A stretch of DNA of 64,000 nt, from the NCBI GenBank assembly GCA_963169745.1, contig CAUJCU010000015.1:146005-210004 (forward strand), in the 5' to 3' direction. Shown here one piece after another: positions 635 to 33,428 of the stretch (position 1 is the stretch's first letter; each line of letters begins with the position of its first letter). Source of the stretch: Bacteroidota bacterium. Lineage in GTDB: Bacteria > Bacteroidota > Bacteroidia > UBA4408. The notes under the pieces were generated by a model that was not told the origin of the DNA, searched no databases, and saw only the letters and a list, made by a program, of their open reading frames with translations. The translations under genes and the position numbers were made by a program.

Positions 635-3600
635 ATGAAAAGAAAAACGCTGTGCTTAATATTTTCTACCGTGTTAGCTGTGTTTATTGTTAACTTTACT
701 CAAGCCCAGACTGATTTTGGTTCTGAAAAAGAACTTCGAAAACAAGCCGAAAACTATTTTAAAGATGATAAACACTCAGAAGCCTTACCTCTTTTTTCAC
801 AGTTATTGAGCTTATATCCCAAAGACCCCAATTATAATTATAAGTATGGGGTTTGCCTCTTATTTGCTAAAGCCGATAAAGAGAAGCCCTTGGCATACTT
901 AACTTTCGCTTTGGGGAAAGAAGGGGTTGATGATGATATTTATTATTATTTGGGAAAGGCGTACCACTTAAATTATCGATTTGATGATGCCATAGTACAA
1001 TATCAGCTATTCAAGCAAAAGAAAAGCAGAAGTTCAACTAAATTAGAAGTTGATTTGCAGATAAAACAGTGTGAAAATGGAAAGCTGTTACTTAAAAATA
1101 TTACTGATTTAACAGTAATTGACCGTAAAGAAATGAATAGTTCTGAATATTTCAGAGCTTATGATCTTACACAAATTGGGGCAAAACTAGTTGTAAAACC
1201 AGATGAACTTAAGACACCTTTTGACATCAAGAAAAAAGAACAATCTAATGTAGTTATTCGTCAAACCAGTCAGGAAATTTACTTTAGTAGTTATGGAAAT
1301 GACGGCAAGAATGGTCGTGATATATACAAGGTAACCAAGCTACCAAATTTCACATGGGGAAAGCCTGAAAATATTGGAGCAATAGTTAATACCCCGTATG
1401 ACGAGGATTTTCCTTATATCACACCAGATGGAAAGACCTTGTATTTTTGTAGCAAAGGGCATAATAGTATGGGGGGCTACGATGTGTTTCGTTCAGAATT
1501 ACAGCCATCAGGAGCATGGGGGAAGCCCCAAAATCTTGATTTTGCCATTAATACCCCCGATGATGACATTCAGTTTGTAACTGAGGCAGAGAGTGATTTT
1601 GCCTATTTCTCATCTAAAAGAAATAGTCCGGAAGGGAAAATTACCGTTTTCAAAATCAGAACGGTACGCGTTCCGGTAACGATTGCTGCCATAAGTGGTA
1701 AGTTTTATAATGATGACGATCCGAAAAGCAAAAAAGCAAAAATTTCAATTCGTAACATTCAAACAGGAAAATTTTTGGGAGTTTTTGCCAGTTCTGAAAA
1801 AGATGGTGCCTATAGGTTAAATTTAAACAATGGTACAAAGTACGAATATACGGTTGAGCAACCAGGATTACCGCCTCTTACACAAACAGTAGAAATACCG
1901 CCTTTAAAAGAGTTAAGACCTCTAAAACAAGAAATTCATTTGAAAAAGAATGATGGTTCTGCAAGTATGGTAATCTATAACTTTTTTAGCGATACTTTAG
2001 AAAATAACGCACTAGCTACGGCTGAATTGTTTAAAGAGAAAGCCAACTTGGAAGTAAATTATGAAGAGCAAATTCAAGCCGGAATAATTACAGAGGCTAT
2101 GACCAAGTCGCCTCCTGTGGTTGATAACAAAGTACTATCAAATAGAAATGCATATCAGGAAAGTACAGACTCAAGCAATGAGGTAAAAGATACAAGCAAC
2201 TCACTTGCTAATAACCATATAACTAATCAAGTAACTACCGATAAGAAAACCTCTATAACCAAGGAGCCCAACTCTGAAAACAAAAATAACAAGACATCAA
2301 AAACAGGAATAAATAACAATGAATTGTTAGCTATTGCCTTTGAAGATACTAAAGACACTCAAAAAGAAGCAGACGATTTAAGAGATAAAAGCAGACAAGC
2401 ATATTCCTTTGCTCATATAAAAAACAATGCGGCACTAAAAAAGCAAAAAGAAGCTGAAGATAAAGAAGAGTTAGCCGAAAACCGGACTAACCCAAAGGAA
2501 AGACAACAACAACTTGAGGAGGCCGATAATTTGAAAAAGGAGGCCGAACCTCTTCGCCAGCAAGCTGTTGTTGCTTACAATTTAGCAAAAAGTTTAGAGA
2601 GTGAAGCCGATAGTAAGCAAATAGAAGCCCGCCAGGCCGAACAGTATGCGCAAGACTTAGAAAAAGCCATTCAATCTAACTCAGCTGAGGCTATATTAAA
2701 CCTGGAGAAACAAAATAAGGAGCTTGAAAAAAATGACACAACTAAGAAAAATAGCGAATATGATAACTTAATGGCTTTGGCTGATCAAAAAAATAATGAA
2801 ACGCAACAAAAAGAACAGGAAAAAGAAAAAGTAAAATTGCAAATTGAAGAGTCGCTTCTTGAAGAAAAGAAAACAAGAGAGTTAGTCTTAAAAACAAATG
2901 ATGAAAAGGCGAAAGAACAGTACGATAGTCGTATTAGTGCTATTTTAGTAGAAAGAAAAGATAAAGAGACCACTTTGACTGCTATCGAAAATGAAATAAC
3001 CCGATTAAAAAGAGAAACCGAAAATATTACCGAAGAAGCACAAATTAATAAGCAAATATTAGCCGAAATTTCGAGTGGTAACAGTACAACATACACTCAA
3101 CTTGGGCAAGCAGAATTAAAAGCATTAGACAACCACTTGGGGGCAGAACAACAGCATAAACAAACCGGATCCCAGGTAACCCAAGTGTCACAAAAAAACA
3201 CGCCTAATAATTCAACTCCTAAAGAACCAATCACGGCTCCTTCGCTATCTAAATTAGAACAACCTGAAAACTACGAGATATATAAAAACTCTAAAGATGA
3301 AAACCAAAGAGAAAAACTTCTTGCCGAAGCGTTAATGTTCAACAACCGAGCTGACTCCATTTCCGATTTGCTGAAAACAACTTCAGAGGTGTCTGAAAAT
3401 GAGGCATTAACTATAAAGCAAAAACAATTTGAAAATATTGCAGCAAGCAAACAAGTAGCAGCCGGAATAATTTCTTACAATATATTACAGAAAGAATACG
3501 ATGCTAATAGAGATGCTTTATTGCGTAAACAAAAAGAATTACAAGAGTCAGATTTGGCCAACTTTAACAATAGCTTAAGCCAAATTGAAAATGATTATCA

Positions 3601-6600
3601 AAAAGCTGTTGATAGTAAAGAGGCAGCTCTTGCTATAACAAATACTAAAGAGCAACAAGAAGCCTTGAATGTTACTTTAAACACTCAAAATGTCGCTTTA
3701 GTGCGTCAAAGGCAATTACTGGAGCAAGCCAATAGCAGCATTATCCTAAATAAAGGTGAAACCAAAATAGCTCAAGACTTTAAAGGTTTTGAGAAAGATA
3801 GAAATATTAATGCAACTGAGGCGGTAAATAGCCTTAGACCCGATTATTTGAATTATAACTCAACGGTAAAGTTAAGCCCAGAAGAGGCTAACGAACTAAG
3901 AAAGAGTAAAGAATTTATAGAGTTTAGTACACTGATTAAACAAGCTAAAACGTATGAGGAAAATGCAGACAAAAAAGCTATTTCCTATAACACCATAAAA
4001 GAAGAAGGACAAAATAAAATTATTGAGTCTCAACAATTAATAGACTTGGCAGCAGAGGAGAAGAAGAAGGCCAAAAAACAAGCTATGGTAGAGGAAGCAG
4101 TAAGAATAGATAATGAAGGGCAAAATCAACTTGCAATGGCCGATACGGTTAAAATTCAGGCACAAAAAGAAATGCTGAAAGCTGTTGCAGTTAAGGAAGA
4201 AGCTGACAAATACATTGCTGCAATTGAAAAGGAGAGAGCAAATAAAATACTAGCATTATTTAATAATCAAATTGAAGAAAAGCAAGTAACAGAAACAAGA
4301 ACATCTTCTGTTGAAAGCAAGGAAAAAGAACCTCTTACTGTAGATATTACGAAAACATCACAACAAACAAGTTCTACAAATACAAATTCTACGCAACAAA
4401 CTATAGTAACTGCTCCAAAATCTCAGGAAACAACTCCTCCGGAAACAGCAAATCAACTTAAGAATAACAATAATAATAGTACACCTTCTGATATCCAGTC
4501 GGTTCAAATAAAAACTAAAGACCAAATATTGACTGAAATTAAGTCAGATAATGACTATAAAGCATATGCCCAAATAAAAGATGAATCTGAGACCCTTAAA
4601 AAGGCTTCACAGCGTAAAAAATTAGAGGCAGATTCTGCTAGAATACAGGCCGAAAGGGAAGCTATTAACAGCAACGACTTATTTGAATTTGCTGCTGCAC
4701 AACCAAAGAAAAAAGATAGAAAAGAGGCACAGTTAAAAGCAGAGCAATTAGACAAACAAGCTAAAGAAACGGCCTTTAGAGCAGACTCGCTTCAAAATGC
4801 AGCTACTGTTATGGAAAATCAGGCTCAGAGCAAGCAAAACGAAGCAGATGATTTTCTAAGAAAGTTTGATGAAATGAAGTCAAAGAAACTGCTTATGGCA
4901 TATAACAATACAGTCCCCGAAGAATTACTTAAAACGGAGACACCAATCATAGCTACAAAAGACATCAATCAAAATAAAGAAACTTTAATATCTCCAGATT
5001 TTCAAAAAAGCACCCAACAAAAGCAAGATACACTGTCAGTACCTACTAAACCGAAGCAGCCAAGTGTGAAAACTACTCCCGAGTACAACACTTATTTAAG
5101 CTTAAAACAAGAAACTGAAAAGGCCGATGAAACTGCTAAAAAATGGAAACAAACTGTAGATTCATTAAAAACACTAAGTGACGAAAAAGAAGATGCTTCA
5201 AATGCAAAATTAGAAGAAGTAGCAGGTCTTAATAAGAAAAAAAGAAAGCCTCTGGTAAAAGAAGCGGCTGATTTGGATTATCAATCTCAGGTTTTAAACA
5301 GACAAGCAGATTCTTTAAATACATTTGTTAACGAAGCAAACAAAATTGCCAAAGAGAAAAAAGCAGCAGAATCATCCTATATAAATGGCTTGGATAAGCA
5401 GTTGTCATTAAGAATAATGCGAGCTATAGAAGGTATTCCAGAACCTGAGGAGCGTATAGACACCAGCCGTATTCTGGCTCATACCCCACAAAATATTAGC
5501 ACATCATCTAAAGAGTCTTTTGTGGCACCAACAAAAACAAGTACTTCTAATGTATCTTTTACAACAAGAGGCATAACAGGGGCTCAGCCACATACTGCAC
5601 GAAACCCTATAAAAATGAATCCCCAAATGCCTGATGGTCTTGTATTTAAAGTTCAAATAGGTGCTTTCAATCGTCCGGTAGCTGATAACGCTTTTGGTAC
5701 CATAAGTCCGGTAACGGGCGAAACCATAGCCGGAAGTAACTTAATACGTTATACGGCTGGGTTATTTAATAATTTTAATGACGCTGCTGAAGCCCGTAAA
5801 GAGCTGAACCAATTAAATTATAAAGATGCCTTTGTTGTAGCCTACTGTTATGGAGTCAGAATCAGCGTTTCCGAAGCCCGAACCCTTGGAGCTGCTGGAA
5901 AAGATTGTAAAACCAATACACTACTAACACCAGATCAAAAAAGTGAATTGGCAGCACAGTTTAATACTTCTACATCTTCAAATTTGAATTCTGATCTATC
6001 TAAGGAGAGTCTAATTAGAGCATCACAGGCTAACATAAACCCTCCTTCGCAAATAAAAATAGGAGAACTATTACCTCAACAAGATTTAGAAACTATAAAA
6101 GGGTTACTTTATACCGTTCAAGTGGGCGTTTATAGCAAACCCGTAAAAGCCGGACAGCTATATAATATTACACCATTGTATTTTGAATTAAATCAAAAAG
6201 GACAATACCGATACACCAGTGGAATTTTTAATGAATTAAAAGAAGCTTTAAAAGCCAAAGATGTTATTGTGCAAATAGGTGTATCTGATGCCTTTGTTTC
6301 GGCTTATGTAAACGGAAAACGAATACCTATGGAAGAGGCAGCGGCTATGGAACTCCAGAAGGGGAAAACAGTTTTTGCTCAAGTTCCGGGTGTCAATGTG
6401 CAACCAAAAATAATTCCTATGGACAATACTGCTATTACATCGGAAATTACCATGCAAACGTCTCAAACAAAAGAGACCGAGATACTTAATAAAGCAGCAA
6501 ATATTGTTTATAAGGTGCAGTTGGGAGCTTTTAGAAAAGAAGTTTCTGTTGAGATTATGAACAAATTTTTAAGTATTGCCGATAAAGGAATAGCCAACTA

Positions 6601-6772
6601 TAAGAATGGAGATTTAACGATTTATACACTCGGTAATTTTAGTAGCATTACAGATGCTGAAAAATTAAGGGCTGAGGTTATTGCCTTAGGAATTACTGAC
6701 GCCTTTATTGTTGCCTTTAACAAAGGACAAAAAATAACAATTGAGGAAGCTAAGAGTATGGGTGGAAACTAA
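635..6772 (+). CDS. giant secreted envelope protein: signal peptide, TPR-like region, TolB/PD40-like beta-propeller, CarboxypepD_reg-like domain, ~1100-aa K/E/Q-rich coiled-coil spacer, 3 C-terminal SPOR domains
   Basis: Single 2045-aa ORF with an N-terminal signal peptide (MKRKTLCLIFSTVLAVFIVNFTQAQ). There are TPR-like YYYLGKAYHLNYRFDDAIVQYQLF motifs. PD40/TolB blades follow (IYFSSYGNDGKNGRDIYKV; PDGKTLYFCSKGHNSMGGYDVFRS; INTPDDDIQF). Then comes a very long low-complexity helical region. Three SPOR-type repeats follow (FKVQIGAFNRP..., YTVQVGVYSKP..., YKVQLGAFRKE...). The N-terminal ~430 aa are clearly paralogous to CDS 20454..22529. Confidence 0.85.
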   Translation: MKRKTLCLIFSTVLAVFIVNFTQAQTDFGSEKELRKQAENYFKDDKHSEALPLFSQLLSLYPKDPNYNYKYGVCLLFAKADKEKPLAYLTFALGKEGVDDDIYYYLGKAYHLNYRFDDAIVQYQLFKQKKSRSSTKLEVDLQIKQCENGKLLLKNITDLTVIDRKEMNSSEYFRAYDLTQIGAKLVVKPDELKTPFDIKKKEQSNVVIRQTSQEIYFSSYGNDGKNGRDIYKVTKLPNFTWGKPENIGAIVNTPYDEDFPYITPDGKTLYFCSKGHNSMGGYDVFRSELQPSGAWGKPQNLDFAINTPDDDIQFVTEAESDFAYFSSKRNSPEGKITVFKIRTVRVPVTIAAISGKFYNDDDPKSKKAKISIRNIQTGKFLGVFASSEKDGAYRLNLNNGTKYEYTVEQPGLPPLTQTVEIPPLKELRPLKQEIHLKKNDGSASMVIYNFFSDTLENNALATAELFKEKANLEVNYEEQIQAGIITEAMTKSPPVVDNKVLSNRNAYQESTDSSNEVKDTSNSLANNHITNQVTTDKKTSITKEPNSENKNNKTSKTGINNNELLAIAFEDTKDTQKEADDLRDKSRQAYSFAHIKNNAALKKQKEAEDKEELAENRTNPKERQQQLEEADNLKKEAEPLRQQAVVAYNLAKSLESEADSKQIEARQAEQYAQDLEKAIQSNSAEAILNLEKQNKELEKNDTTKKNSEYDNLMALADQKNNETQQKEQEKEKVKLQIEESLLEEKKTRELVLKTNDEKAKEQYDSRISAILVERKDKETTLTAIENEITRLKRETENITEEAQINKQILAEISSGNSTTYTQLGQAELKALDNHLGAEQQHKQTGSQVTQVSQKNTPNNSTPKEPITAPSLSKLEQPENYEIYKNSKDENQREKLLAEALMFNNRADSISDLLKTTSEVSENEALTIKQKQFENIAASKQVAAGIISYNILQKEYDANRDALLRKQKELQESDLANFNNSLSQIENDYQKAVDSKEAALAITNTKEQQEALNVTLNTQNVALVRQRQLLEQANSSIILNKGETKIAQDFKGFEKDRNINATEAVNSLRPDYLNYNSTVKLSPEEANELRKSKEFIEFSTLIKQAKTYEENADKKAISYNTIKEEGQNKIIESQQLIDLAAEEKKKAKKQAMVEEAVRIDNEGQNQLAMADTVKIQAQKEMLKAVAVKEEADKYIAAIEKERANKILALFNNQIEEKQVTETRTSSVESKEKEPLTVDITKTSQQTSSTNTNSTQQTIVTAPKSQETTPPETANQLKNNNNNSTPSDIQSVQIKTKDQILTEIKSDNDYKAYAQIKDESETLKKASQRKKLEADSARIQAEREAINSNDLFEFAAAQPKKKDRKEAQLKAEQLDKQAKETAFRADSLQNAATVMENQAQSKQNEADDFLRKFDEMKSKKLLMAYNNTVPEELLKTETPIIATKDINQNKETLISPDFQKSTQQKQDTLSVPTKPKQPSVKTTPEYNTYLSLKQETEKADETAKKWKQTVDSLKTLSDEKEDASNAKLEEVAGLNKKKRKPLVKEAADLDYQSQVLNRQADSLNTFVNEANKIAKEKKAAESSYINGLDKQLSLRIMRAIEGIPEPEERIDTSRILAHTPQNISTSSKESFVAPTKTSTSNVSFTTRGITGAQPHTARNPIKMNPQMPDGLVFKVQIGAFNRPVADNAFGTISPVTGETIAGSNLIRYTAGLFNNFNDAAEARKELNQLNYKDAFVVAYCYGVRISVSEARTLGAAGKDCKTNTLLTPDQKSELAAQFNTSTSSNLNSDLSKESLIRASQANINPPSQIKIGELLPQQDLETIKGLLYTVQVGVYSKPVKAGQLYNITPLYFELNQKGQYRYTSGIFNELKEALKAKDVIVQIGVSDAFVSAYVNGKRIPMEEAAAMELQKGKTVFAQVPGVNVQPKIIPMDNTAITSEITMQTSQTKETEILNKAANIVYKVQLGAFRKEVSVEIMNKFLSIADKGIANYKNGDLTIYTLGNFSSITDAEKLRAEVIALGITDAFIVAFNKGQKITIEEAKSMGGN
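5641..6760 (+). repeat. three tandem SPOR (sporulation-related repeat, septal peptidoglycan-binding) domain units inside the 635..6772 CDS
   Basis: Protein-level triplication of a ~80-aa unit beginning VQIGAF / VQVGVY / VQLGAF with the downstream YR/YT, GxF and DAF motifs typical of SPOR domains. DNA starts near 5641, 6110 and 6508. Confidence 0.6.
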
Positions 6773-7693: not shown

Positions 7694-9703
7694 TTGAAGA
7701 AAAATCGGATAATATTTGCTTTATTATTAGTCACTATTGGTGTTATATTTTTTAGTGTTGAATGCCAATCTCCTAAAAAACAAAATGGCAGCGAAAATTT
7801 GGAAACACCTCATTATCTAAATCATGCTGATTCTGCCCGTTATGTAGGTATCAACGCTTGTAAAACATGCCATTATGAAATTTACACATCGTTTATTGAA
7901 ACCGGCATGGGGCAGTCGTTTGATATTGCTAGTAAAAAGAAGAGTGCTGCTTTATTTGGACCAAGTAATGTAATTTACGATTCTTATTCAGATTTTTATT
8001 ACCATCCTTATTTTTCTGGAGATACTATGAAAATATTGGAATTCCGTATCAATGGTAAAGATACTGTTTACAAGCGTACCGAAACGGTAAACTATATTAT
8101 TGGTTCGGGGCAACATACCAATTCACACATGATGATTCGAGATGGTTTTGTTACCCAAATGCCAATGACCTTTTATACCCAAAAAAAACAATGGGATTTA
8201 CCCCCCGGTTTTGAAAATGGATACAATTCACGGTTTAGCCGGAAAATTGGCTTAGAATGCATGAGCTGCCATAATTCATACCCTGATTTTGTTTTAGGAT
8301 CTGAAAACAAGTTTAATGCTATACCTCATGGAATAGGGTGTGAACGATGCCATGGACCAGGCTCTATTCATGTTGATTTAAAAACAAAAAACCAAATAGT
8401 AGATACCGCTAAAAACATTGATTACAGCATTGTGAATCCGGCTAAATTAGCACCTAATTTACAATTTGATATATGCCAAAGATGCCATCTCCAGGGAAAC
8501 ACTATTTTAAAAGATAATTATTCTTTTTACGATTTTAAACCGGGAAAAAAACTATCTGATTTTATGACTGTTTTTTTGCCTAAATTCAGCCATGCTGATG
8601 ATGAATTTATTATGGCTTCACATGCTGATAGACTCAAGCAAAGCCAATGCTTTATACAAAGTCAGAAATATGTTGACTCCTCTTCCTTAAAACCATATAA
8701 AAATACGATGACATGCGTAACTTGTCATAACCCACATAAAAGTGTAAAGTTTCAGAAAGATGAATTTTTTAATGCAAAATGCAACTCATGTCATGCCGAA
8801 AAACAAGTAGCCACTTGTTCCGAAACTAAATCGAAAATTGATTTGCAAAAGAATAATTGTGTAAGTTGCCACATGCCCAACTCCGGATCTATTGATATTC
8901 CCCATGTTACTGTTCATGATCATTATATTAGAAAACCCAAGCCTGCTACTGAACTTAAAAAGGCTAAAGAGTTCCTAGGATTGATTGCCATTAACGAGTT
9001 AAACCCTAACCATAAAACCAAAGCCCAAGCCTATATTAACCAATACGAAAAATTCGATAAAGTAGCCTATTATCTTGATTCGGCAGAAGTTTATACAAAT
9101 ATTTTACGAAAACAATCATTGACACTCTTCTTGGATGTAATTGTCCATTTGAATTTTCTAAAAGGAAACTACTCACAAATTATTGCTGATGTTGAGAAGA
9201 TTGGTCAGGTAAAACTTATTAACGACATCCTTGTCCATCCTTCTTATAACAATAAGGATGCCTGGTTGTGTTATAGAATTGGAGAAGCCTATCAAACCCA
9301 AATGGAATACACTAAAGCCATGGTTTATTATGCTCAGGCTAACAAGCTTGCACCATACTATCCAGATTTTTTAAACAAGTATGCCGGTGCCTGTCTTAAC
9401 AACAACCAATTGCCACAAGCTCAATCATTATATATAAAACTGACACAAAATTTTCCTGAATTTGCACCGGGTTTTTCAAATTTAGGTTTTATCTATTTAA
9501 CCCAAAATGATAAAGTCAATGCACATAAATACATTACCAAGGCTTTACAATTGGATCCCGATTATGAGTTGGCTCTGATGAACAAAGTAAGTCTTTTATT
9601 GTACGAAAATAACATCAAAGAAGCTCAAAAAATATTAAAGAAAATTATTAAACGAAACCCCAAACAAGAAAAAGCAAAAGAGCTTTTACTGCAGCTTCAT
9701 TAA
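7694..9703 (+). CDS. multihaem c-type cytochrome (7 CXXCH motifs) fused to C-terminal TPR repeats; N-terminal signal/anchor
   Basis: Seven haem-binding motifs read directly from the translation: CKTCH, CMSCH, CERCH, CQRCH, CVTCH, CNSCH, CVSCH. An N-terminal hydrophobic segment is present (IIFALLLVTIGVIFF). The C-terminal ~200 aa are TPR-like (AYQTQMEYTKAMVYYAQANKL..., LGFIYLTQNDKVNAHKYITKALQLDP...). Confidence 0.8.
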   Translation: MKKNRIIFALLLVTIGVIFFSVECQSPKKQNGSENLETPHYLNHADSARYVGINACKTCHYEIYTSFIETGMGQSFDIASKKKSAALFGPSNVIYDSYSDFYYHPYFSGDTMKILEFRINGKDTVYKRTETVNYIIGSGQHTNSHMMIRDGFVTQMPMTFYTQKKQWDLPPGFENGYNSRFSRKIGLECMSCHNSYPDFVLGSENKFNAIPHGIGCERCHGPGSIHVDLKTKNQIVDTAKNIDYSIVNPAKLAPNLQFDICQRCHLQGNTILKDNYSFYDFKPGKKLSDFMTVFLPKFSHADDEFIMASHADRLKQSQCFIQSQKYVDSSSLKPYKNTMTCVTCHNPHKSVKFQKDEFFNAKCNSCHAEKQVATCSETKSKIDLQKNNCVSCHMPNSGSIDIPHVTVHDHYIRKPKPATELKKAKEFLGLIAINELNPNHKTKAQAYINQYEKFDKVAYYLDSAEVYTNILRKQSLTLFLDVIVHLNFLKGNYSQIIADVEKIGQVKLINDILVHPSYNNKDAWLCYRIGEAYQTQMEYTKAMVYYAQANKLAPYYPDFLNKYAGACLNNNQLPQAQSLYIKLTQNFPEFAPGFSNLGFIYLTQNDKVNAHKYITKALQLDPDYELALMNKVSLLLYENNIKEAQKILKKIIKRNPKQEKAKELLLQLH

Positions 9704-9713
9704 AAATTAATTT

Positions 9714-10802
9714 ATGACTCGTAAAAGAAAATCAAGTAAAGAAACTTCGAAAAAGAAAAGCTCAGGTTTTTTCAGAAAAGTACTCATATCTTTATTCTTT
9801 ATTCTTATAATAATTGGAGGCGGAACCGTATATTTTACATACACTGCAGTTTATAAGCCCAATATTAAATTACAGGGAAAAGAAAATACATTTTTATACA
9901 TTAATACAGGGAGTACTTTTAATGAAGTTTTAAAAACCTTGGTTGACAGTCAAATTATAAATAATCAAAGTTCATTTAAATGGGTGGCCGAGCATAAGGG
10001 ATATATAAATAAAGTAAAGCCCGGAAGATATAAAATAAAGAAAGGAATGAGCAACAACGAACTCGTTAATCTGTTACGCAGTGGAGTTCAAGAGCCGGTT
10101 AAACTTATTTTTAATGAAGCTCGAACTAAAAATGATTTTACCGAAATTATTTCAAAACAAATTGAGGCAGAAAAAATAAGTATTGAAAAATTACTTGAAG
10201 ATAATGACTTTTTAAATCAATATCAGGTAAACAACAAAAATGTTTTGACTTTATTTATCCCCAATACCTATGATTTTTTTTGGAACACCAATGCCCAACA
10301 ATTTATAGAGCGAATGGCAGAAGAAAACAATAAATTTTGGACTAAAGAAAGATTAAAGAAAGCTGCCCGATTAAATTTATCAAAAACAGAGGTAAGTATA
10401 TTGGCAAGTATTGTACAGCAAGAGAGCAAGGTGGTTGATGAACAACCTGTAGTTGCCGGAGTTTATCTGAATAGACTTAAAAAAAAGATGTTGCTACAAG
10501 CTGATCCAACTGTGATTTTTGCAGTTGGTGATTTTTCAATCAGAAGAGTACTGAATACACATTTGAATTATGATTCTCCATACAATACCTATAAATATTT
10601 GGGCTTACCACCCGGCCCAATATGTATGCCTTACTCAAACACTATTGATGCGGTATTGAACAGTAAACCCCACAACTATCTTTATTTTTGTGCAAAAGCA
10701 GATTTTAGTGGACGACACAGTTTTGCCAGCACATTGGCACAACACAATAGAAATGCCGAAGCATTTAGAAAGGCCTTAAACAATAAAAAAATTTTTAAAT
10801 AA
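9714..10802 (+). CDS. mltG: endolytic murein transglycosylase MltG (YceG family)
   Basis: N-terminal basic tail plus a single TM anchor. YceG-like domain (…PGRYKIKKGMSNNELVNLL…, …LQADPTVIFA…, YNTYKYLGLPPGPICMP); 362 aa. Confidence 0.85.
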   Translation: MTRKRKSSKETSKKKSSGFFRKVLISLFFILIIIGGGTVYFTYTAVYKPNIKLQGKENTFLYINTGSTFNEVLKTLVDSQIINNQSSFKWVAEHKGYINKVKPGRYKIKKGMSNNELVNLLRSGVQEPVKLIFNEARTKNDFTEIISKQIEAEKISIEKLLEDNDFLNQYQVNNKNVLTLFIPNTYDFFWNTNAQQFIERMAEENNKFWTKERLKKAARLNLSKTEVSILASIVQQESKVVDEQPVVAGVYLNRLKKKMLLQADPTVIFAVGDFSIRRVLNTHLNYDSPYNTYKYLGLPPGPICMPYSNTIDAVLNSKPHNYLYFCAKADFSGRHSFASTLAQHNRNAEAFRKALNNKKIFK

Positions 10803-10845: not shown

Positions 10846-11115
10846 TTGTTATCAAAAAAAATGTTTCCGGTATATCTAAAATATAAAGGCCACTTAACCT
10901 ATTTTAAAATTGAATCTTACCATCAATTTTTGGAGCTAAAAATCTTAGGGCAGTACTTTTGCCTTACCCTGAATACCGCAAAAATATTACCCGACCGTGT
11001 TTTTATTGCCGACCTTCTCGAAGATCAGGGTAAACATGTAGAACGAATTACCCAGTCCGAGTTTGAGGAAATTTTGAAGACCTGTTATCAGACTCGAACA
11101 GAAACTTCTTTTTAA
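10846..11115 (+). CDS. hypothetical small protein (89 aa), function unknown
   Basis: Only an ORF in the 400-bp gap between mltG and cphA, on the same strand. No recognisable motifs. Confidence 0.3.
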   Translation: MLSKKMFPVYLKYKGHLTYFKIESYHQFLELKILGQYFCLTLNTAKILPDRVFIADLLEDQGKHVERITQSEFEEILKTCYQTRTETSF

Positions 11116-11207: not shown

Positions 11208-13859
11208 ATGAACATTATTGATATAAAGGCCATGCGTGGCCCCAATTACTGGAGTATCAGACGACATAAGCTAATTGTTATGAAAATTGATTTGGAAGAA
11301 ATGGAAGAATTTCCTTCCAATAAAATCGATGGCTTTGCCGACCGGTTAGAAAAAATGTTCCCAAGTATGTATGAACACGAATGCAGTGAAAATAAGCCGG
11401 GAGGCTTTTTTTCTCGTGTACGGGAGGGCACCTGGATGGGGCATGTGATTGAACATATAGCTCTTGAAATTCAAACCTTAGCAGGAATGGATACCGGCTT
11501 TGGCCGAACCCGAACAACAGGCGAACATGGGGTGTATAATGTCGTTTTTAGCTATCAGGAAGAAAAAGTAGGAATATATGCTGCAAAGGCTGCTGTGCGT
11601 ATTTGTGAGGCCCTTGCAAAAGACACACCTTATGATTTAGGAGAGGATATTCAAAAAATGCGAGAAATACGTGAAGATGAAAGACTGGGGCCAAGTACAG
11701 GTTCAATTGTAGAGGAAGCTCAGGCACGTGGTATTCCATGGATACGTTTAAACCGTTATAGCCTGGTGCAGTTGGGATATGGCGTTAACCAAAAAAGAAT
11801 ACAAGCTACTGTAACGAGCAACACCAGTAATATTGCAGTTGAAATTGCTTGCGACAAAGAAGAAACTAAAAATTTGCTTGAAGCAGCTTCAATCCCAGTC
11901 CCACGTGGCACCATAATCTATGATGAAGAGGACATGGAACGTGCCGTAAGAAGAATAGGTTACCCTTTAGTGTTTAAACCGGTTAATGGAAATCATGGAA
12001 GAGGTGCTACCATAAATATTCAAAATTGGGATGCGGCTGTTGAAGCTTTGACTCTAGCAAAAAAAGTAAGCCGAGGCGTGATTTGTGAAAAGTTTATCAC
12101 CGGTTTTGACTTTCGTCTTTTAGTAATTAATTATCAGTTAATAGCTGCTGCCAAAAGAACTCCAGCTTGTGTAACAGGAAATGGCAAATCAACTATAAAG
12201 CAGCTTGTTGAGGAGGTAAATAATGACCCCCGCAGAGGTTATGGACACGAAAAAGTACTTACGGCTATTAAGCTAGATGAAATGACATTAAATATTTTGA
12301 AGGATAAAAATCTCAGTATTGATGATGTATTGCCTGATGGTGAAGTGCTTTACTTAAAAAAAACAGCAAACTTAAGTACTGGAGGAACCAGCACAGATGT
12401 TACTGATTTGGTGCACCCTGATAACGTTTTTATGGCCGAAAGAATTGCTCGCATTATTGGTCTTGATATTTGTGGTATTGATATTATGGCCTCCGATTTG
12501 AGTACTCCAATTAGTCAAAATGGTGGAGCTGTTCTGGAAGTGAATGCCGCCCCGGGTTTTAGAATGCATATTGCTCCTGCCGAGGGCTTGCCACGAAATG
12601 TAGCCGAACCAGTCATTGATATGCTATATCCGCCCGGCAGCTCAGCTCGTATTCCAATAATTGCCGTAACAGGAACCAATGGAAAAACAACTACAACCCG
12701 ACTTATGGCTCACATTGTGAAAACAATGGGGCATAAGGTTGGATTTACCACAACAGATGGTATTTATGTGCAAAATCGTATGTTGGAACAAGGAGATTGT
12801 ACGGGGCCGGTTAGTGCCGAGTTTATTTTAAAAGATCCAACGGTTGATTATGCCGTATTGGAATGTGCCCGTGGAGGAATTTTAAGAGCCGGCTTAGGCT
12901 TTCATAAATGCGACATAGCTATTGTAACAAACGTAGCAGCCGACCACTTAGGATTAAAAGATATTAATACTTTAGAAGACATGGCTCGTGTAAAGGGCGT
13001 TGTGCCTGAAAGTGTTATGCCCGAAGGTTATGCCATATTAAATGCAGACGATGATTTGGTGTATAATATGCGTAAAGGCTTAGAGTGTAATGTGGCCTTA
13101 TTCAGCTTAAACGAAAATAATCCACGTATAGTTGAACACTGTAATAAAGGCGGATTAGCAGCTATTGTTGAAAACGGCTATGTTACAATATGCAAAGGCA
13201 CCTGGCGCATTCGTGTGGATAAAGTTGTAAATATTCCACTCACGTTTAGCGGTAAAGCAATCTTTATGATTCAGAATGTTTTACCTGCCATACTTGCCGG
13301 GTTTATTAGAAATTTTAAGACAGAAGATATCAGATTGGCTTTGGGCACTTTTATTCCTTCGCCAACGCAAACTCCAGGACGTATGAACTTATTTCACTTT
13401 AAAAACTTTCAAGTTATGGTGGATTACGCCCATAATACAGCCGGATTCCAGGCCATTGGTAAGTTTTTAGAAAAAATTGAGGCGAAACCTAAAATTGGGA
13501 TTATTGCCGGTGTAGGCGATAGAAGAGATGAAGATATTTACAATTTGGGGAAACAAGCAGCCCAGATGTTTGATAAAATAATCATCAGACAAGATAAAAA
13601 TTTAAGAGGCCGAACAGAGCAGGAGATTATAGATTTAATGAAGAAAGGAATTAATGAAGTAGATGCATTACGATTAGAAAAAATAATTCCAACAGAAAAA
13701 GAAGCCATTGAGTATGCTATTAAAAATGCCCAAAAGGGTTCTTTTATTACAATTTGCAGCGATGTTGTACCTGACGCCTTAGATCAAATTATGAAATACA
13801 AAGAACGAGAAGATAAGTTTGAAATAACTGTTGAAGATATTCAGGACTTACATAAATAA
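11208..13859 (+). CDS. cphA: cyanophycin synthetase CphA1 (N domain + ATP-grasp + Mur-ligase-like domain)
   Basis: N-terminus MNIIDIKAMRGPNYWSIRRHKLIVMKIDLEE matches the conserved CphA N-domain start. An ATP-grasp region (GYPLVFKPVNGNHGRGATINI) follows. A Mur-ligase P-loop (IIAVTGTNGKTTTTRLMAHI) follows and the C-terminal region is Mur-ligase-like. The 883-aa length is typical of CphA1, not the shorter CphA2. Confidence 0.9.
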   Translation: MNIIDIKAMRGPNYWSIRRHKLIVMKIDLEEMEEFPSNKIDGFADRLEKMFPSMYEHECSENKPGGFFSRVREGTWMGHVIEHIALEIQTLAGMDTGFGRTRTTGEHGVYNVVFSYQEEKVGIYAAKAAVRICEALAKDTPYDLGEDIQKMREIREDERLGPSTGSIVEEAQARGIPWIRLNRYSLVQLGYGVNQKRIQATVTSNTSNIAVEIACDKEETKNLLEAASIPVPRGTIIYDEEDMERAVRRIGYPLVFKPVNGNHGRGATINIQNWDAAVEALTLAKKVSRGVICEKFITGFDFRLLVINYQLIAAAKRTPACVTGNGKSTIKQLVEEVNNDPRRGYGHEKVLTAIKLDEMTLNILKDKNLSIDDVLPDGEVLYLKKTANLSTGGTSTDVTDLVHPDNVFMAERIARIIGLDICGIDIMASDLSTPISQNGGAVLEVNAAPGFRMHIAPAEGLPRNVAEPVIDMLYPPGSSARIPIIAVTGTNGKTTTTRLMAHIVKTMGHKVGFTTTDGIYVQNRMLEQGDCTGPVSAEFILKDPTVDYAVLECARGGILRAGLGFHKCDIAIVTNVAADHLGLKDINTLEDMARVKGVVPESVMPEGYAILNADDDLVYNMRKGLECNVALFSLNENNPRIVEHCNKGGLAAIVENGYVTICKGTWRIRVDKVVNIPLTFSGKAIFMIQNVLPAILAGFIRNFKTEDIRLALGTFIPSPTQTPGRMNLFHFKNFQVMVDYAHNTAGFQAIGKFLEKIEAKPKIGIIAGVGDRRDEDIYNLGKQAAQMFDKIIIRQDKNLRGRTEQEIIDLMKKGINEVDALRLEKIIPTEKEAIEYAIKNAQKGSFITICSDVVPDALDQIMKYKEREDKFEITVEDIQDLHK

Positions 13860-13988
13860 TATCCCTTTTTCATAAAGTTCTAATTTCCAATTCTCAACTT
13901 GCTGCATCATGATGATTTTAAGAAAAATAGTGTTTTGTTAAAACAGGGTAGAACGTAAAAAGCGTTTTATTGCTTAAAAAAAGTACCT

Positions 13989-15590
13989 TTGCAGGCTTAT
14001 TTTTTTAAAATGACCACGCTACAAGAGATAGAGAGAAGAAGAACTTTTGGGATTATTAGCCATCCGGATGCCGGAAAAACAACCCTTACCGAAAAGTTGC
14101 TGCTTTTTGGAGGTGCTATTCAAACCGCAGGAGCGGTAAAAAGTAATAAAATTAAAAAACACGCTACTTCCGACTTTATGGAAATAGAAAAGCAGCGGGG
14201 AATATCTGTTGCTACCTCGGTGATGGGTTTTGAGTATAAAAACAAAAAAATTAATTTATTGGATACTCCCGGTCACGAAGATTTTGCAGAGGATACTTAC
14301 CGTACTTTAACCGCTGTTGATAGCGTCATTATGGTTATAGACTGTGTTAAAGGGGTTGAGCCACAAACACGAAAGCTATTGGAAGTTTGTCGTATGAGGA
14401 ATACGCCTGTTATTGTTTTCATTAACAAGCTTGATCGTGAAGGACGTGATCCATTCGATTTGTTGGATGAAATTGAAAAAGAACTCAAAATAAAAGTTCG
14501 TCCGCTTAGTTGGCCCATTGGTATGGGAAAGCAGTTTAAAGGAGTGTACAGTTTATACGAGAAAAGTTTAATATTATTTGATGCAGGAAATAAACAAAAA
14601 CCCGAATCGTCACTTAAAATTGACGATGTAAATGCACCTGAAATTGAAACTAACATTGGAGCTCGTTTTGCAGAAAAACTACGTGAAGAAGTTGAAATTA
14701 TTGAATCTGTATATCCTCAATTTAATCCTGCAGAATACCTGAAGGGAAATATATCGCCAGTCTTTTTTGGTAGTGCCGTAAATAATTTTGGAGTTCGTGA
14801 GTTGTTGGATTGTTTTGTTGACATAGCACCGGTTCCTCAAAGCCGTGAAACAGAACAAAGAGAAGTACAACCAACGGATAAAGATTTTTCAGGTTTTGTT
14901 TTTAAAATACATGCCAATATTGATCCCAAACATCGTGACAGAATAGCTTTTTTACGCATCTGTTCAGGAGTGTTTGAACGAAATAAAAACTACTTTCATG
15001 TACGTGAAAACCGACAATTGAAATTCAGTAACCCTACTGCATTTATGGCTGCTGAAAAAAATGTAATAGATGAAGCCTTCCCGGGCGATATAATAGGACT
15101 ATACGATACTGGCGTGTTTAAAATTGGAGATACGCTTACCGAAGGCTCTAAGGAGTCTTTTAAAGGCATACCCAGTTTTTCTCCCGAAATATTTAGGTAT
15201 GTAAATAATACTGATCCTATGAAGACCAAACAACTAAACAAAGGGTTGGAACAACTTACTGATGAAGGTGTGGCACAGTTGTTTACAAAAACACTGAATA
15301 ACCGAAAAATATTAGGAACCGTAGGTGCCCTTCAGTTTGAAGTTATTCAACATCGTTTAAAAAGTGAATATGGTGCCAGTTGTACTTTTGAAAATATTAA
15401 TTTGTATAAAGCTTGTTGGATAAGCAGCATAGATAAAAACAAATTGAAAAGTTTTATTCAAGAGAAATCGCACCACATGGCTATTGACAAAGATAATAAA
15501 CCTGTATTCTTAGCAGAATCGGCTTGGTCTTTACAAATGGCTCAGGAAAAAAATCCTGAAATAGCGTTTCATTTCAAGTCTGAATTTTAA
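13989..15590 (+). CDS. prfC: peptide chain release factor 3 (RF3)
   Basis: Translational GTPase G1 motif [38 protein letters not shown]; 533 aa. Confidence 0.9.
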
Positions 15591-24742: not shown

Positions 24743-26105
24743 TCAATTAGTTATAATCCCCAATTCTTCATTAGTCAGTCCAAATTTAGTAATTTGTTTT
24801 TGTATTCTTTTTACTATTCCCAACTTTCTTTTCTGGTCTAAAAATAAATAACCTTCCGGGTTGATGTATTGCACATTTTTTACAACCATGTTCCATATAA
24901 TTACTCCAAATTTTCGGGCAGTAGCACTTATTGCAGAAACTCTACCTTTTCTAAAATTTATTCTTTGGAAAAAGTCTCTTAAAGGTGTTGAGTCTTTAAG
25001 ATTTCCTATGGCATTAGCAGCATTTCGAAATGCTATTTTCAGTCTGTTACTCCCTTTAGGCACTTTACTTGAAAGTACTTTGCCACCACTAACTTTGTTG
25101 TTTGGAGCAAGTCTGAGCCAGGAGCAAAAGTGTTTTGCAGTTGGAAACTTTTTTATTCCTTCTATACCTACTTCACTCATTATGGCAAGCACTGTAGCGT
25201 GACTCATGCCTTCTATTGCCAGCAAATCTGTACTTTCAAACATTTGATACGATTTTAGATTAAGATCTATGTCTTTGGGCGTATTTTTATTGATTCGCTT
25301 ATGCGGTTTTGAATCTATGTGGTGCTGTTTTTTATTTTCATCATTGTTAATGATTTCATCGAGCATTAATGCAATCATCTTGTCACATTCCATCATTTTA
25401 TTTTGGATGTGGTCATAAGTATCGAGTTCCTGCTGGAGTGTAAATAAATAATCTGTTCTTCCATTGCTTTGTAAAGCTTTGGCAATTTCCTCTTCACTCT
25501 TGCGACAGTTGGCATGTCGAAGTGCTGCAAGCTTTTGAGGATTTGCTTCTCCATCGCAGATAGCTCTGATAATGCGTAGTCCGGTAAGTCCACAAACATC
25601 ATTGACCACCACATCTAAGCGCAAATTTAAGAGTCTCAAATATTTCTGCATTTTTTTGCTTGTAGAAGCTGCATTGTGCAAGAGATTGGCTCTGTGTCGG
25701 CAAAAGGTTCTGAGTTGCTCTGTTTTTCCGTCTAGGAGGAAACTACTGCTCAAAAGTCCTAAGCTGTGCAACATTTGAATCCATTGGCAATCTTTAATAT
25801 CGGTCTTTTTGCCCTTGATGTTTTTGGTAAACTTTCCATTGCAAAGGATAACATGGAATCCCTTTGAGATTAAAACGGCATAAAGATTTTTGCCAGTAAG
25901 TACCGGTGCTTTCCATGGCTATGGTTCTAATCTTGTGCTCGTGAAGCCAATCGGCCATTTCATAAAGGTCTTGGTTAAATACGCCAAACGCTCTCACATC
26001 ATTTTCATGTTGCCCTACAGCTACCCAGTGGGAGCGACTACCAACATCAATTCCTGCGGCTAAAGGATTGACAATGTCCATTGGTATTTTTTCTTCTTCT
26101 ACCAT
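24743..26105 (-). pseudogene. IS110-family DEDD recombinase/transposase disrupted by a 1-nt frameshift in a homopolymer (two ORFs 25794..26105 and 24743..25774)
   Basis: The N-terminal ORF ends ...ESTGTYWQKSLCRF... The overlapping frame continues ...NLYAVLISKGFHVILCNGKFTKNIKGKKTDIKDCQWIQMLHSLGLL..., which is the conserved IS110 sequence. Removing one A from the A5 run (minus-strand caaaaatc; plus-strand T5 at 25887..25891) restores ESTGTYWQNLYAVLISKGF. Confidence 0.75.
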
Positions 26106-29136: not shown

Positions 29137-32100
29137 GTGAAAAACTTAGAACAAAAATCAAAAGATGAATTAATTGAATACATCAAATTGCTGCAAAGCA
29201 AGATTGATAATGTAAATCTATACTTCCCCGGCTTTGGTGTAATCAATAAGTATGAGAAAATCAATACACAAACTATTGATAAGTATCGACTTATGTTTCA
29301 AAAATCTAATGATGCCATTCTGGTTCTTAAAAAAAATATAGTTACCGAATGCAATTTTAAAAGCGAAAGTGTTTTTGGAATACACAAAGAGCATATTATT
29401 GGAAAATTTCTTTATGACTTTACACCCATGATTCAGCCTGATGGGTCAAATAGTAAAGAGAAAATTCACCAGTTTTTAAAAGAGAGTAACTCCAAGCACC
29501 AACAAATTCCATTACAAATTAAGATGTTGAAAAATGGGCTCAATTTGTTTGATGCAGAACTAAATTTTTCTGAATTTACAATTGATGAAGATACCTTTGT
29601 TTATCTCGTAATTAGAGATGTTTCAGAACGGATGGAGTTAAGCCGCCAGCTTAAAGATGAGTATGAAAAACGAATTGAAGAGCAAGATTTAACCCAAAGT
29701 GGAAATTGGGAATTTAATGCCAATAATTTTGATGTTTATTGGTCACCATCAGCCTATGCCATACATGACCTTTCACGCCATATAAAAGCACCCACATTAA
29801 ATGAATATTTTGCTCAATATGTGCACCCCGATGAGCATGATATTTTGTTTCAGGCAATTCAGGAAAGTATTAGAACGGGCCATAATTTTAGTATGGACTA
29901 CAAAATTAGGACCAAAAATCAAAAAATGAAATACCTGCATGTTAAGGGCAAAGCGGTATATCAGTTAAATGGTGAGGTTGATAAAGTTGTTGGTACAGTT
30001 GTAGATATTACAGAAAGAAAATTATTGGAAATTAAACTAAATGATAGTAAAGAGCAATATCAGAATTTGATTGAAAAATTGCCTGAAGGGGTAATTATCT
30101 ACAACCTCCAAAAAATACTGTATGCCAATATTAGTGCTTTTCAAATACCTAAGGTTAACTCTCTAAAAGAAGATTGTTCAGCATATTCAATTTTTGATTT
30201 TATTTTACCTCAATATAAAAATGAAGTTGAAAGAAAAATAAAGTTCCTAATTGAAGGCAAATCATTGGGAACTGTAGAAATGAGAATAAAAAATGCAGAG
30301 GGCAAAATTATAGATATTGAGGTTAGAAGTAACCCTGTGGTTCATAATGGAGAAGTGGCCATACAGGCTATTTTTTCAGAAATAACCTATAGAAAATATG
30401 TGGAACGGAAACTTCGTGAAAGTGAGCGCAGATTGAGTACCTTAATTGGTAATTTACAAGGAATGGTGTATAGGTGCAAAAATGATCCCTCTTGGACTAT
30501 GGAGTTTGTTAGCGATGGCTGTTTAGAGCTTACAGGTTATGATAGAGAAGCCATGTTAAATAATACATCTATACATTATAGCGAATTAATTCTTGATGAA
30601 GATAGGGAATCTGTTTGGCAAAAAGTACAAGAGGCGGTTTCAGAACGAAGAGTATTTACTCTTTCTTATCGTATTAGAACAAAAAATGGAACCATAAAAT
30701 GGCTCCACGAACAGGGTAAAGGTATTTTTGATGATCAAAATAAACTTTTGGCATTGGAGGGCTTTATTACCGATGTGTCAAGAGAAAAATATGCCGAAAT
30801 TGCCTTAAAGGAAAGATATAACGATTATAAGAATATTGTTGACTTTGTACCTGAAGGAATGCTTATACATAAGCACGGAACTATTGTTTTCGCAAATCAG
30901 GTAGCGCTCGGTATTTTTGGCTATAATACCAATGATGAGTTAAAAGGCCTTTCCATGATGAATTTTATTCTTCCGGAATTCCATGAAAAAGTTAAAAAGC
31001 GTGTTGAAGGCTCTTATAAAGGAATGCCTCAAACCTTTACTGAAATTAAGGTTTATACTCGAAATGGGGGGGTATTGGAAGTAGAAACTCGAAGTATTCC
31101 ATTTGTGTATGAAAACGAACAATGTGTTTTAGTTGCAGTTCACGCTATTGATGCTCAGAAACAGCTTGCAAAAGAAACTATAAGAGCAAAATTAGCTGAG
31201 GAAGCAAATGAAGCTTTAAAAAAGGAAATAGAGCAAAAAGTGATTGCTCAAAATGAATTAATTACTTCTCAGAACTATGTAAAGAATATCATTAATAGTT
31301 CGTTGGATATGATTATTGCCTCTGATAGGAACAATAAAGTAACGGAATTCAATAAAGCTGCGCAGATTGTTTATGGCTATAAAGAAAGTGAAATTATTGG
31401 ACAAGAGTTAAGTGTTTTAACATCTGCTCCTGAGGTGCTTTTGAAGGTTCAAGATGTACTGCATAAAGAAGGATACTTCTCAGGAGAGGTACTCAATATC
31501 AGAAAAAATGGGGAATTGTTCGATTGCTTCTTAACGGCTACTTTACTGCTCAACGAAAAAGGAGAGGTAATAGGAAGCATGGGGGTTTCGCGAGATTTAA
31601 CGAAACTAAAAAAAGATCGCGAACGCTTCCATCTAAGTGAAGAAAGATATAAAGCTATTTTCAACCAAGTTTTTGTTGGAATAGCTCGTTTAGACATATC
31701 CGGAAAGTTTACCCAGGTTAACCAAAGATTTTGTACTATATTAGGATATACAGAAGAAGAATTGTTAGAGCTTTATTTTCAAGATAAAAGCGTTGAGCAT
31801 ACTGTTAATGGCTTTGAGAATTTATTGGATTATTTAATTAGGAAAAAAATCAATGACTATACATTCGAGCAAAATTATTATCATAAAGATGGTCATATTG
31901 TAAATACCCAAATAAACATTTCATTAGTATTAAGTGCCAATAACAGCCCTATGTACTTTGTATTGGTTTGTGCTGATATTACTGAAAATAAGCGAAACCA
32001 TGAATTAGCCTTAAAACAAACGGCCAAGCTAAATTCATTAATTGAGAGCAGCAATTATATGGTAATGGCAATTGATAAAAAAGAAAGGCTAACAACATTT

Positions 32101-33417: not shown

Positions 33418-33428
33418 CAATATTCAAA

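What the first reader, a model, noticed from the sequence alone, without database searches (positions are those of the whole stretch)
11208..13859. Full-length CphA1-type cyanophycin synthetase with no cyanophycinase or isoaspartyl dipeptidase in the neighbourhood
The 883-aa ORF has the N domain, the ATP-grasp domain (backbone Asp addition) and the Mur-ligase-like domain (Arg addition) of CphA1. That is the enzyme for non-ribosomal synthesis of the multi-L-arginyl-poly-L-aspartate N/C storage polymer. In cyanobacteria and many heterotrophs, cphA is paired with cphB. Here it is flanked by mltG, an 89-aa unknown ORF and prfC. Bacteroidota cyanophycin metabolism is little studied. The orphan arrangement suggests either degradation encoded elsewhere or a different fate for the polymer.
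Basis: partly seen in the sequence, partly recalled or inferred. Interest (0 to 1): 0.55.

Follow-up and report, generated by a model that had tools for sequence, protein, structure and literature searches.

The report
Ordinary cyanophycin synthetase, degradation gene elsewhere
This is an intact, ordinary cyanophycin synthetase gene from an uncultured freshwater Bacteroidia bacterium; it looks "orphan" only because its partner, the cyanophycin-degrading enzyme gene, almost certainly lies on another stretch of the same genome.

Summary
The ORF at 11208-13859 (+) encodes an 883-aa CphA1. It scores 1285 bits against the NCBIfam cyanophycin synthetase equivalog (cutoff 850) and is 52% identical to the solved Synechocystis enzyme. 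Every active-site residue I mapped in all three domains is conserved. No cyanophycinase, IaaA, IadA or M14/CphZ-type gene, and no remnant of cphB or iaaA, lies anywhere in the 64-kb window.

The "orphan" reading does not hold up. Of 80 related Bacteroidota loci, 50 have cphB within 500 bp of cphA, and 30 also carry iaaA. The window's small clade has lost that linkage. In a sister species, cphB lies about 10 kb upstream of cphA.

A cyanophycinase 88% identical to the sister's cphB turns up in the same metagenome samples as the window's own contigs. It has the same downstream gene order as in the sister, the same divergence (dN about 0.08), and a tetranucleotide signature indistinguishable from the window's. 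So degradation is very probably encoded elsewhere in this genome.

Published genome surveys already report that cphA1 and cphB are unclustered in 19% of genomes that have both. This is a new member of a known kind, of low interest. The only unexplained item is a conserved, clade-specific 84-aa gene directly upstream of cphA.

The parts
11208..13859 (+). cphA1, cyanophycin synthetase 1 (883 aa plus stop)
   Evidence: TIGR02068 equivalog at 1285 bits (cutoff 850), full length. Matches PDB 7lg5 SuCphA1 at E=5e-300, with 51.6% identity over 859 aligned residues. dN/dS about 0.04 against a sister species.
11208..11687 (+). N domain (about aa 1-160), with the cryptic metallopeptidase-like primer-generating site
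   Evidence: Pfam PF18921 covers aa 25-137. The Cx19HxxEH motif residues C59, H79, E82 and H83, plus H57, F67, R70 and E87, are all conserved. The residue list comes from PMC9262961.
11442..11456 (+). HxxEH motif (H79-V-I-E82-H83) of the N-domain active site; C59 is at 11382-11384
   Evidence: Direct reading of the translation and mapping onto SuCphA1.
11688..12635 (+). G domain (about aa 161-476), the ATP-grasp / glutathione-synthetase-like domain that adds Asp to the backbone C-terminus
   Evidence: ATP-grasp Pfam hits and a GshAB-type match over aa 163-475. E212, H263 (G-domain P-loop), R303, R317, N388 and R452 correspond to E215, H267, R309, R323, N394 and R458 of Su/TeCphA1 (PMC9427784, PMC9262961).
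12636..13856 (+). M domain (about aa 477-883), the Mur-ligase-like domain that adds Arg to the Asp side chain
   Evidence: Mur_ligase_M covers aa 487-697 and Mur_ligase_C covers aa 724-851. N491, K493, T494, T516, E552, D579, H580, F686, R725 and H742 correspond to N497, K499, T500, T522, E558, D585, H586, F692, R731 and H748.
10861..11115 (+). Conserved 84-aa gene of unknown function directly upstream of cphA.
9714..10802 (+). mltG/yceG (context only; not part of the system)
   Evidence: PF02618 at 283 bits and TIGR00247. It is next to cphA in no other locus examined.
13989..15590 (+). prfC, release factor 3 (context only). The real start is probably the ATG at 14011.
   Evidence: NF001964 at 791 bits. 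A Bacteroidota -7 box, TACCTTTG, sits at 13984. prfC is next to cphA in no other locus examined.

Best explanation
The ORF encodes a functional, primer-independent CphA1. Its G (ATP-grasp) domain phosphorylates the C-terminal backbone carboxylate of a growing chain and adds L-Asp. Its M (Mur-ligase-like) domain phosphorylates the new Asp side-chain carboxylate and adds L-Arg. Its N domain holds the polymer and uses a Zn-type HxxEH site to cut chains into primers. The product is cyanophycin, an intracellular nitrogen/carbon reserve. Degradation is not missing; the cphB gene is simply unlinked from cphA. In most related Bacteroidota, cphB sits divergently within a few hundred bp of cphA, often with iaaA. 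In the genus-level clade that contains this window, genome rearrangement separated the two genes. This organism carries its cphB on another contig, at the head of a cphB / DCC1-like / S8 peptidase / hypothetical gene block. The sequence-level identity of cphA and cphB is shown. The assignment of cphB to the same genome is strongly inferred. The enzymology is inferred from characterised homologues.
For: Identity and integrity of cphA: with all mapped catalytic and ligand residues conserved. Purifying selection: dN 0.08 with saturated dS, dN/dS about 0.04.

Ancestral linkage: cphB lies within 500 bp of cphA in 50 of 80 relatives and at 0.5-10 kb in 6 more; iaaA is present in 30. In the CphA NJ tree the window clade is nested among lineages with adjacent cphB. 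In the sister species (CphA 88.8% identical), cphB lies 9.3 kb upstream of cphA.

cphB of this organism: P0016 is a TIGR02069 equivalog at 226.7 bits against a cutoff of 126.6. It is 88% identical to the sister's CphB. It occurs in Logan samples ERR10655372, ERR10655375 and ERR10643351, which also carry the window's own small ORF and cphA contigs. Its downstream block S51 / DCC1-like / S8 / hypothetical is syntenic with the sister species. Its divergence from the sister (nt identity 0.785, dN 0.086) matches that of cphA (0.78, 0.076-0.08). Its contigs correlate with the window's tetranucleotide profile at r = 0.96-0.98, the same as the window's own quarters. Sister species give 0.90-0.93 and all other loci 0.95 or less.

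Literature: cphA1 and cphB are unclustered in 19% of genomes that have both, and all 86 complete Bacteroidota genomes with CphA1 have a cyanophycinase (PMC10206079).
Against: I could not show physical linkage of the cphB contig to the window's genome. A very close co-occurring strain or species could own P0016. No isoaspartyl dipeptidase (IaaA, IadA or CphZ type) could be assigned to this organism. No recognisable Bacteroidota -7 promoter box lies directly upstream of cphA, so how it is expressed is unknown. No biochemical or expression data exist for this gene.
Confidence: 0.85

Rival explanations
1. True orphan. The organism makes cyanophycin but has no cyanophycinase, and P0016 belongs to a co-occurring relative. 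The polymer would then be turned over by an unknown enzyme, by the slow endo-cleavage of CphA1's own N domain, or released for other community members.
For: No cphB within 11 kb upstream or 50 kb downstream of cphA. Same-genome assignment of P0016 rests on co-occurrence, composition and matched divergence, not on physical linkage. Many cphA1 genomes, mostly beta-proteobacterial, lack a recognisable cyanophycinase (PMC10206079). The N-domain HxxEH site is intact.
Against: All 86 complete Bacteroidota genomes with CphA1 have a cyanophycinase (PMC10206079). The sister species keeps cphB. P0016 matches the window in sample distribution, tetranucleotide profile and divergence.
Confidence: 0.08
2. 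The small ORF and cphA form a module that was recently moved or horizontally acquired and inserted between mltG and prfC. That relocation is what broke the link to cphB. This is a mechanism for the unlinking and is compatible with the best explanation.
For: The small ORF stays with cphA in at least three different contexts. An IS110 transposase lies 11 kb downstream.
Against: The GC content of cphA (0.36-0.38) is close to the window background of about 0.35. No repeats or integrase flank the pair. CphA phylogeny groups the window with its taxonomic neighbours, so transfer between phyla is unlikely. The direction of the rearrangement, that is which context is ancestral, is not resolved.
Confidence: 0.3
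3. The enzyme has drifted in function. It might be inactive, make a different polymer, or act only as a CphA2-like dipeptide polymerase.
For: None specific. Substrate specificity cannot be read from sequence with certainty.
Against: All mapped residues of the G, M and N sites are conserved. The protein is full length and scores above the equivalog cutoff. dN/dS is about 0.04. CphA2-type structures (629-642 aa) align only to aa 133-575, whereas this protein has a complete M domain with an intact P-loop.
Confidence: 0.03

Closest known systems
Synechocystis sp. UTEX2470 CphA1 (SuCphA1; PDB 7LG5, 7LGJ, 7LGQ, 7TXU, 7TXV)
   Same: Same N-G-M architecture. 51.6% identity over 859 residues. The same catalytic residues in the G and M domains and an intact Cx19HxxEH N-domain site, so I predict a primer-independent enzyme (PMC9262961).
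   Different: The host is a heterotrophic Bacteroidia rather than a cyanobacterium. E90, a polymer-contacting residue in SuCphA1, is T90 here. cphB is not adjacent.
Trichodesmium erythraeum CphA1 (TeCphA1; PDB 7WAC-7WAF)
   Same: E=3.6e-291. All residues shown by mutagenesis to matter are conserved: E215, H267, R309, R323, N394, R458 and K499 (PMC9427784).
   Different: TeCphA1 has a longer C-terminus (910 aa against 883 aa).
Canonical Bacteroidota iaaA-cphB-cphA cluster (for example loci L027, L042, L060)
   Same: The CphA proteins are orthologous, 67-81% identical. The cphB assigned to this organism is orthologous to their adjacent cphB, about 70-76% identical as measured for the sister species' 88%-identical CphB.
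   Different: Here cphB is not within the 64-kb window, and no iaaA has been found for this organism.
Beta-proteobacterial cphA1 genomes without recognisable cyanophycinase (PMC10206079)
   Same: cphA1 has no neighbouring cphB.
   Different: In those genomes cyanophycinase is absent genome-wide (only 2.8% have one). Here a cphB ortholog is present in the same population.

Membership tests
CphA1 (cyanophycin synthetase 1, TIGR02068) | Full-length match to the curated equivalog model above its trusted cutoff | tested here: met
   1285.3 bits against a cutoff of 850, covering aa 2-864 and model positions 1-861 of 862.
CphA1 (cyanophycin synthetase 1, TIGR02068) | Three-domain architecture: N domain, ATP-grasp G domain, Mur-ligase-like M domain | tested here: met
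   PF18921, ATP-grasp families, PF08245 and PF02875, in that order. End-to-end alignment to 7lg5.
CphA1 (cyanophycin synthetase 1, TIGR02068) | G-domain catalytic and substrate residues (SuCphA1/TeCphA1 E215, H267, R309, R323, N394, R458) | tested here: met
   E212, H263, R303, R317, N388 and R452 are all identical. The residue list comes from PMC9427784 and PMC9262961.
CphA1 (cyanophycin synthetase 1, TIGR02068) | M-domain ATP/Mg2+ and catalytic residues (N497, K499, T500, T522, E558, D585, H586, F692, R731, H748) | tested here: met
   N491, K493, T494, T516, E552, D579, H580, F686, R725 and H742 are all identical.
CphA1 (cyanophycin synthetase 1, TIGR02068) | ATP-dependent polymerisation of Asp and Arg into multi-L-arginyl-poly-L-aspartate | not testable with these tools
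   Needs expression and an in vitro or in vivo polymer assay.
Primer-independent CphA1 subclass | Complete Cx19HxxEH motif in the N domain (present in 83% of CphA1s at 70% non-redundancy) | tested here: met
   C59, H79, E82 and H83, plus H57, F67, R70 and E87, are present (PMC9262961).
CphA2 (dipeptide-polymerising synthetase) | Shorter protein (about 630-640 aa) without a complete, active M domain; N-domain motif absent | tested here: not met
   The protein is 883 aa with a complete M domain and P-loop. CphA2-type chains 7ta5 and 8fxh align only to aa 133-575.
Clustered cphA-cphB locus (cphB within 5 kb, as defined in PMC10206079) | A cyanophycinase gene within 5 kb of cphA1 | tested here: not met
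   No S51 gene or remnant anywhere in the 64 kb.
Genome-wide orphan cphA1 (no cyanophycinase in the genome) | Absence of cphB, cphE or cphI from the whole genome | tested here: inconclusive
A cyanophycinase equivalog (P0016) with matching samples, composition, synteny and divergence argues against orphan status.

The most novel reading that the evidence does not exclude
The conserved, clade-restricted 84-aa protein encoded directly upstream of cphA (10861-11115) is a previously unknown cyanophycin-associated factor, for example a regulator of CphA1 or a granule-associated protein. On this reading it was retained next to cphA after this lineage lost the cphB linkage. It stays with cphA in at least three different genomic contexts and has a confident, compact predicted fold with no informative structural match.
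Probability: 0.1. Interest if true: 0.4.

Novelty: new member of a known kind. Interest (0 to 1): 0.12.

Why it matters
It matters little beyond annotation. The result adds one more uncultured freshwater Bacteroidia lineage predicted to store nitrogen as cyanophycin. It also shows that apparent "orphan" biosynthetic genes in a limited window should be checked against relatives and against the same samples before a new pathway is inferred. One side result is mildly useful. Within 80 Bacteroidota relatives, the divergent cphB-cphA pair is the ancestral layout, often with iaaA, and it has been broken several times independently. The isoaspartyl dipeptidase step remains unassigned for this organism, in line with the open question raised in PMC10206079.

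Tried and rejected
1. I looked for a decayed cphB or iaaA between mltG and cphA, and anywhere else in the window. I used six-frame translation and profiles built from relatives, with filters off. Nothing turned up.

2. I tested whether the 205-aa gene that occupies the "cphB position" in L007 and L018 is a truncated cyanophycinase. It is an OmpW-like beta-barrel protein.

3. I tried to get NCBI accessions linking P0016 to the window's contig. None were returned; the records list only "NCBI, Logan" as sources and longest contigs of 339,682 and 229,411 bp.

4. I searched for the organism's IaaA with the nearest relative's IaaA as query. No hit shared the window's contig lengths. The one candidate I followed up (P0168) comes from a different genome, with tetranucleotide r = 0.815.

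6. The sigma-70 promoter scan found no more sites than shuffled sequence (18 against an expected 19). The terminator-like scan found 10 sites against 4.5 in shuffles, and I did not follow these up. The Bacteroidota -7 box search found no exact match directly upstream of cphA.

7. Rfam and tRNA scans of the window were empty.

8. The M20 peptidase next to the presumed cphB is not a conserved neighbour in any other locus. I did not promote it to a candidate dipeptidase beyond a passing note.

Full report
**Observation.** The ORF at 11208-13859 (+) exists as described: ATG start, 883 codons plus stop. Pfam finds, in order, the cyanophycin-synthase N domain (aa 25-137, 166 bits), ATP-grasp families (aa about 210-320), Mur_ligase_M (aa 487-697) and Mur_ligase_C (aa 724-851). 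NCBIfam's equivalog model for cyanophycin synthetase, TIGR02068, matches end to end at 1285 bits against a curated cutoff of 850. The best solved relatives are the CphA1 enzymes of Synechocystis sp. UTEX2470 (7lg5, E=5e-300) and Trichodesmium (7wac, E=4e-291).

They are prmC, a multihaem cytochrome/TPR protein, mltG (9714-10802), a small ORF (10846-11115), cphA, prfC (13989-15590), an rlmI-like methyltransferase and a MATE transporter, all on the + strand.

**Is the enzyme intact?** I mapped the residues that structural and mutational papers identify as essential onto the window protein, using the HMMER alignment to SuCphA1 (51.6% identity over 859 positions).
- G domain: E215, H267, R309, R323, N394 and R458 correspond to E212, H263, R303, R317, N388 and R452.
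- M domain: N497, K499, T500, T522, E558, D585, H586, F692, R731 and H748 correspond to N491, K493, T494, T516, E552, D579, H580, F686, R725 and H742.
- N domain: the Cx19HxxEH metallopeptidase-like site that creates primers (C59, H79, E82, H83, with H57, F67, R70 and E87) is complete.

The residue lists come from PMC9427784 and PMC9262961. The second paper reports the motif in about 83% of CphA1s and links it to primer independence. Against sister species, cphA shows dN about 0.08 with saturated dS, so dN/dS is about 0.04. This is a functional-looking, probably primer-independent CphA1.

**Is degradation really absent nearby?** Yes, within the window. I scanned essentially all ORFs of 110 aa or more across the 64 kb against Pfam or NCBIfam. 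None is a Peptidase_S51, Asparaginase_2 (IaaA), IadA-type amidohydrolase or M14/AstE_AspA (CphZ-type) protein. To exclude pseudogenes, I built cphB and iaaA profiles from relatives and searched all six frames of the window with filters off. The best E-values were above 1.

**What do relatives look like?** The exact protein occurs only in metagenome assemblies (Logan ERR10643345 and others) and an NCBI MAG. A scan of species-representative genomes returned 80 loci, all with a Bacteroidota CphA, though a few records carry other taxon labels. The closest are freshwater lake Bacteroidia MAGs at 88-89% identity. I clustered the flanking ORFs and then ran a six-frame HMM search, with these results:
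- 50 of 80 loci have a roughly 290-aa gene within 500 bp of cphA, almost always divergent.
- 6 more have it at 0.5-10 kb.
- 13 have none despite at least 5 kb of flank on both sides.
- 11 have none but sit on short contigs.

That gene is cyanophycinase (TIGR02069, 240 bits against a cutoff of 127). Thirty loci also carry an IaaA-like beta-aspartyl peptidase next to cphB (NF007589, 387 bits, below that equivalog's cutoff). In an NJ tree of CphA, the window's clade is nested among lineages with adjacent cphB. The unlinked state is therefore derived, and it has arisen several times.

**Where is this organism's cphB?** The small ORF upstream of cphA served as a handle on the clade. In the sister species (CphA 88.8% identical), the gene order is S51 peptidase / DCC1-like / S8 peptidase / 250-aa protein / Y1 transposase / beta-helix protein (-) / PDDEXK_1 (-) / small ORF / OMP (-) / cphA. 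cphB lies 9.3 kb upstream of cphA. That S51 protein scores 484 bits against my cphB profile.

Searching the protein collection with it gave P0016, which is 88% identical and comes from NCBI plus Logan only. P0016 passes the cyanophycinase equivalog cutoff (226.7 against 126.6). Four lines of evidence tie it to the window's organism:
1. It is encoded on contigs from ERR10655372, ERR10655375 and ERR10643351. These are the samples that also carry contigs identical to the window's small ORF and cphA region.
2. Its downstream block, cphB / DCC1-like / S8 / hypothetical, is syntenic with the sister species.
3. Its divergence from the sister (nt identity 0.785, dN 0.086) matches that of cphA (0.78, 0.076-0.08).
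4. The tetranucleotide profiles of its contigs correlate with the window at r = 0.96-0.98. The window's own quarters give the same values. Sister species give 0.90-0.93 and all other Bacteroidota loci 0.95 or less.

I could not obtain physical linkage or accessions, so this is a strong inference, not proof.

**Context of the unlinking.** The mltG and prfC flanks occur next to cphA in no other locus. In three other species of the clade, the order is PDDEXK_1 (-) / small ORF / OMP (-) / cphA. The small-ORF-plus-cphA pair has therefore ended up in different contexts through rearrangement. Composition gives no hint of foreign origin.

**Comparison with what is known.** Sharon et al. (PMC10206079) surveyed 27,349 complete genomes. 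They found 1614 with cphA1, of which only 658 also had a cyanophycinase. The two genes were within 5 kb of each other in 81% of genomes that had both. All 86 Bacteroidota genomes with cphA1 had a cyanophycinase, but only 22% had IaaA or IadA. An unclustered cphA1 is thus a known, fairly common situation, and a Bacteroidota genome is expected to have cphB somewhere, as found here. The same paper notes that the Bacteroidota isoaspartyl dipeptidase is often unidentified. I likewise could not assign one to this organism.

**Mechanism.** This is inferred from characterised homologues. The G domain extends the poly-Asp backbone at the C-terminus through an acyl-phosphate. The M domain attaches Arg to the new side chain. 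The N domain tethers the polymer and cleaves it into primers. CphB, encoded elsewhere, releases beta-Asp-Arg dipeptides. An unidentified dipeptidase completes the breakdown.

**Verdict.** The gene is an ordinary, intact CphA1, a new member of a known family. Its "orphan" status is a local feature of the locus and very probably does not apply to the whole genome. Interest is low.

Noticed in passing
window 10861-11115 (+): An 84-aa protein restricted to this Bacteroidia clade (13 clusters in the whole protein collection). It has an invariant AKILPDRVFIADLLED motif and sits directly upstream of cphA. Its AF2 fold is confident (four strands, two helices) but has no informative PDB match.
   Followed up: yes
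window 7694-9703 (+): A 669-aa protein with an N-terminal hydrophobic segment suggesting export. It has seven CxxCH haem-binding motifs, MtrC/DmsE-like Pfam and NCBIfam hits, and C-terminal TPR repeats. This is a multihaem cytochrome in a freshwater Bacteroidia.
   Followed up: partly
window 13984-14013 (+): The ORF list starts prfC at the TTG at 13989. A Bacteroidota-type -7 box (TACCTTTG) lies at 13984 and an ATG at 14011, so the true start is probably 14011 and prfC has its own promoter.
   Followed up: partly
window 24743-25774 (-): An IS110/IS116/IS902-family transposase gene, about 11 kb downstream of cphA.
   Followed up: no
window 635-6772 (+): A 2045-aa protein with an N-terminal hydrophobic leader that looks like a signal peptide, a PD40 beta-propeller repeat and a C-terminal SPOR (peptidoglycan-binding) domain.
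   Followed up: no
L095 5826-9418 (and L090 898-4494): The presumed cphB of this organism heads a tightly packed block: cphB / DCC1-like thiol-disulfide oxidoreductase / S8 subtilisin-like peptidase / 237-aa hypothetical. The block is conserved in the sister species. None of the three partners is a known cyanophycin gene.
   Followed up: partly
L095 4116-5582 (-): A 488-aa M20 family peptidase lies divergent from cphB in this organism only. It is a weak candidate for the unidentified Bacteroidota beta-Asp-Arg dipeptidase and is not a conserved neighbour elsewhere.
   Followed up: partly
L007 9187-9804 (-), L018 88-699 (-), L089-L092, L099-L102: In most species of the clade, an OmpW-like beta-barrel gene of about 200 aa is wedged, on the opposite strand, between the small ORF and cphA. 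It is absent from the window and from L006.
   Followed up: partly
window 29137-34187 (+): A 1426-aa multi-PAS HisKA_2 histidine kinase is followed by a LytTR response regulator. LytTR regulators (my cluster 4) also appear near cphA in a few relatives, such as L038 and L052.
   Followed up: no
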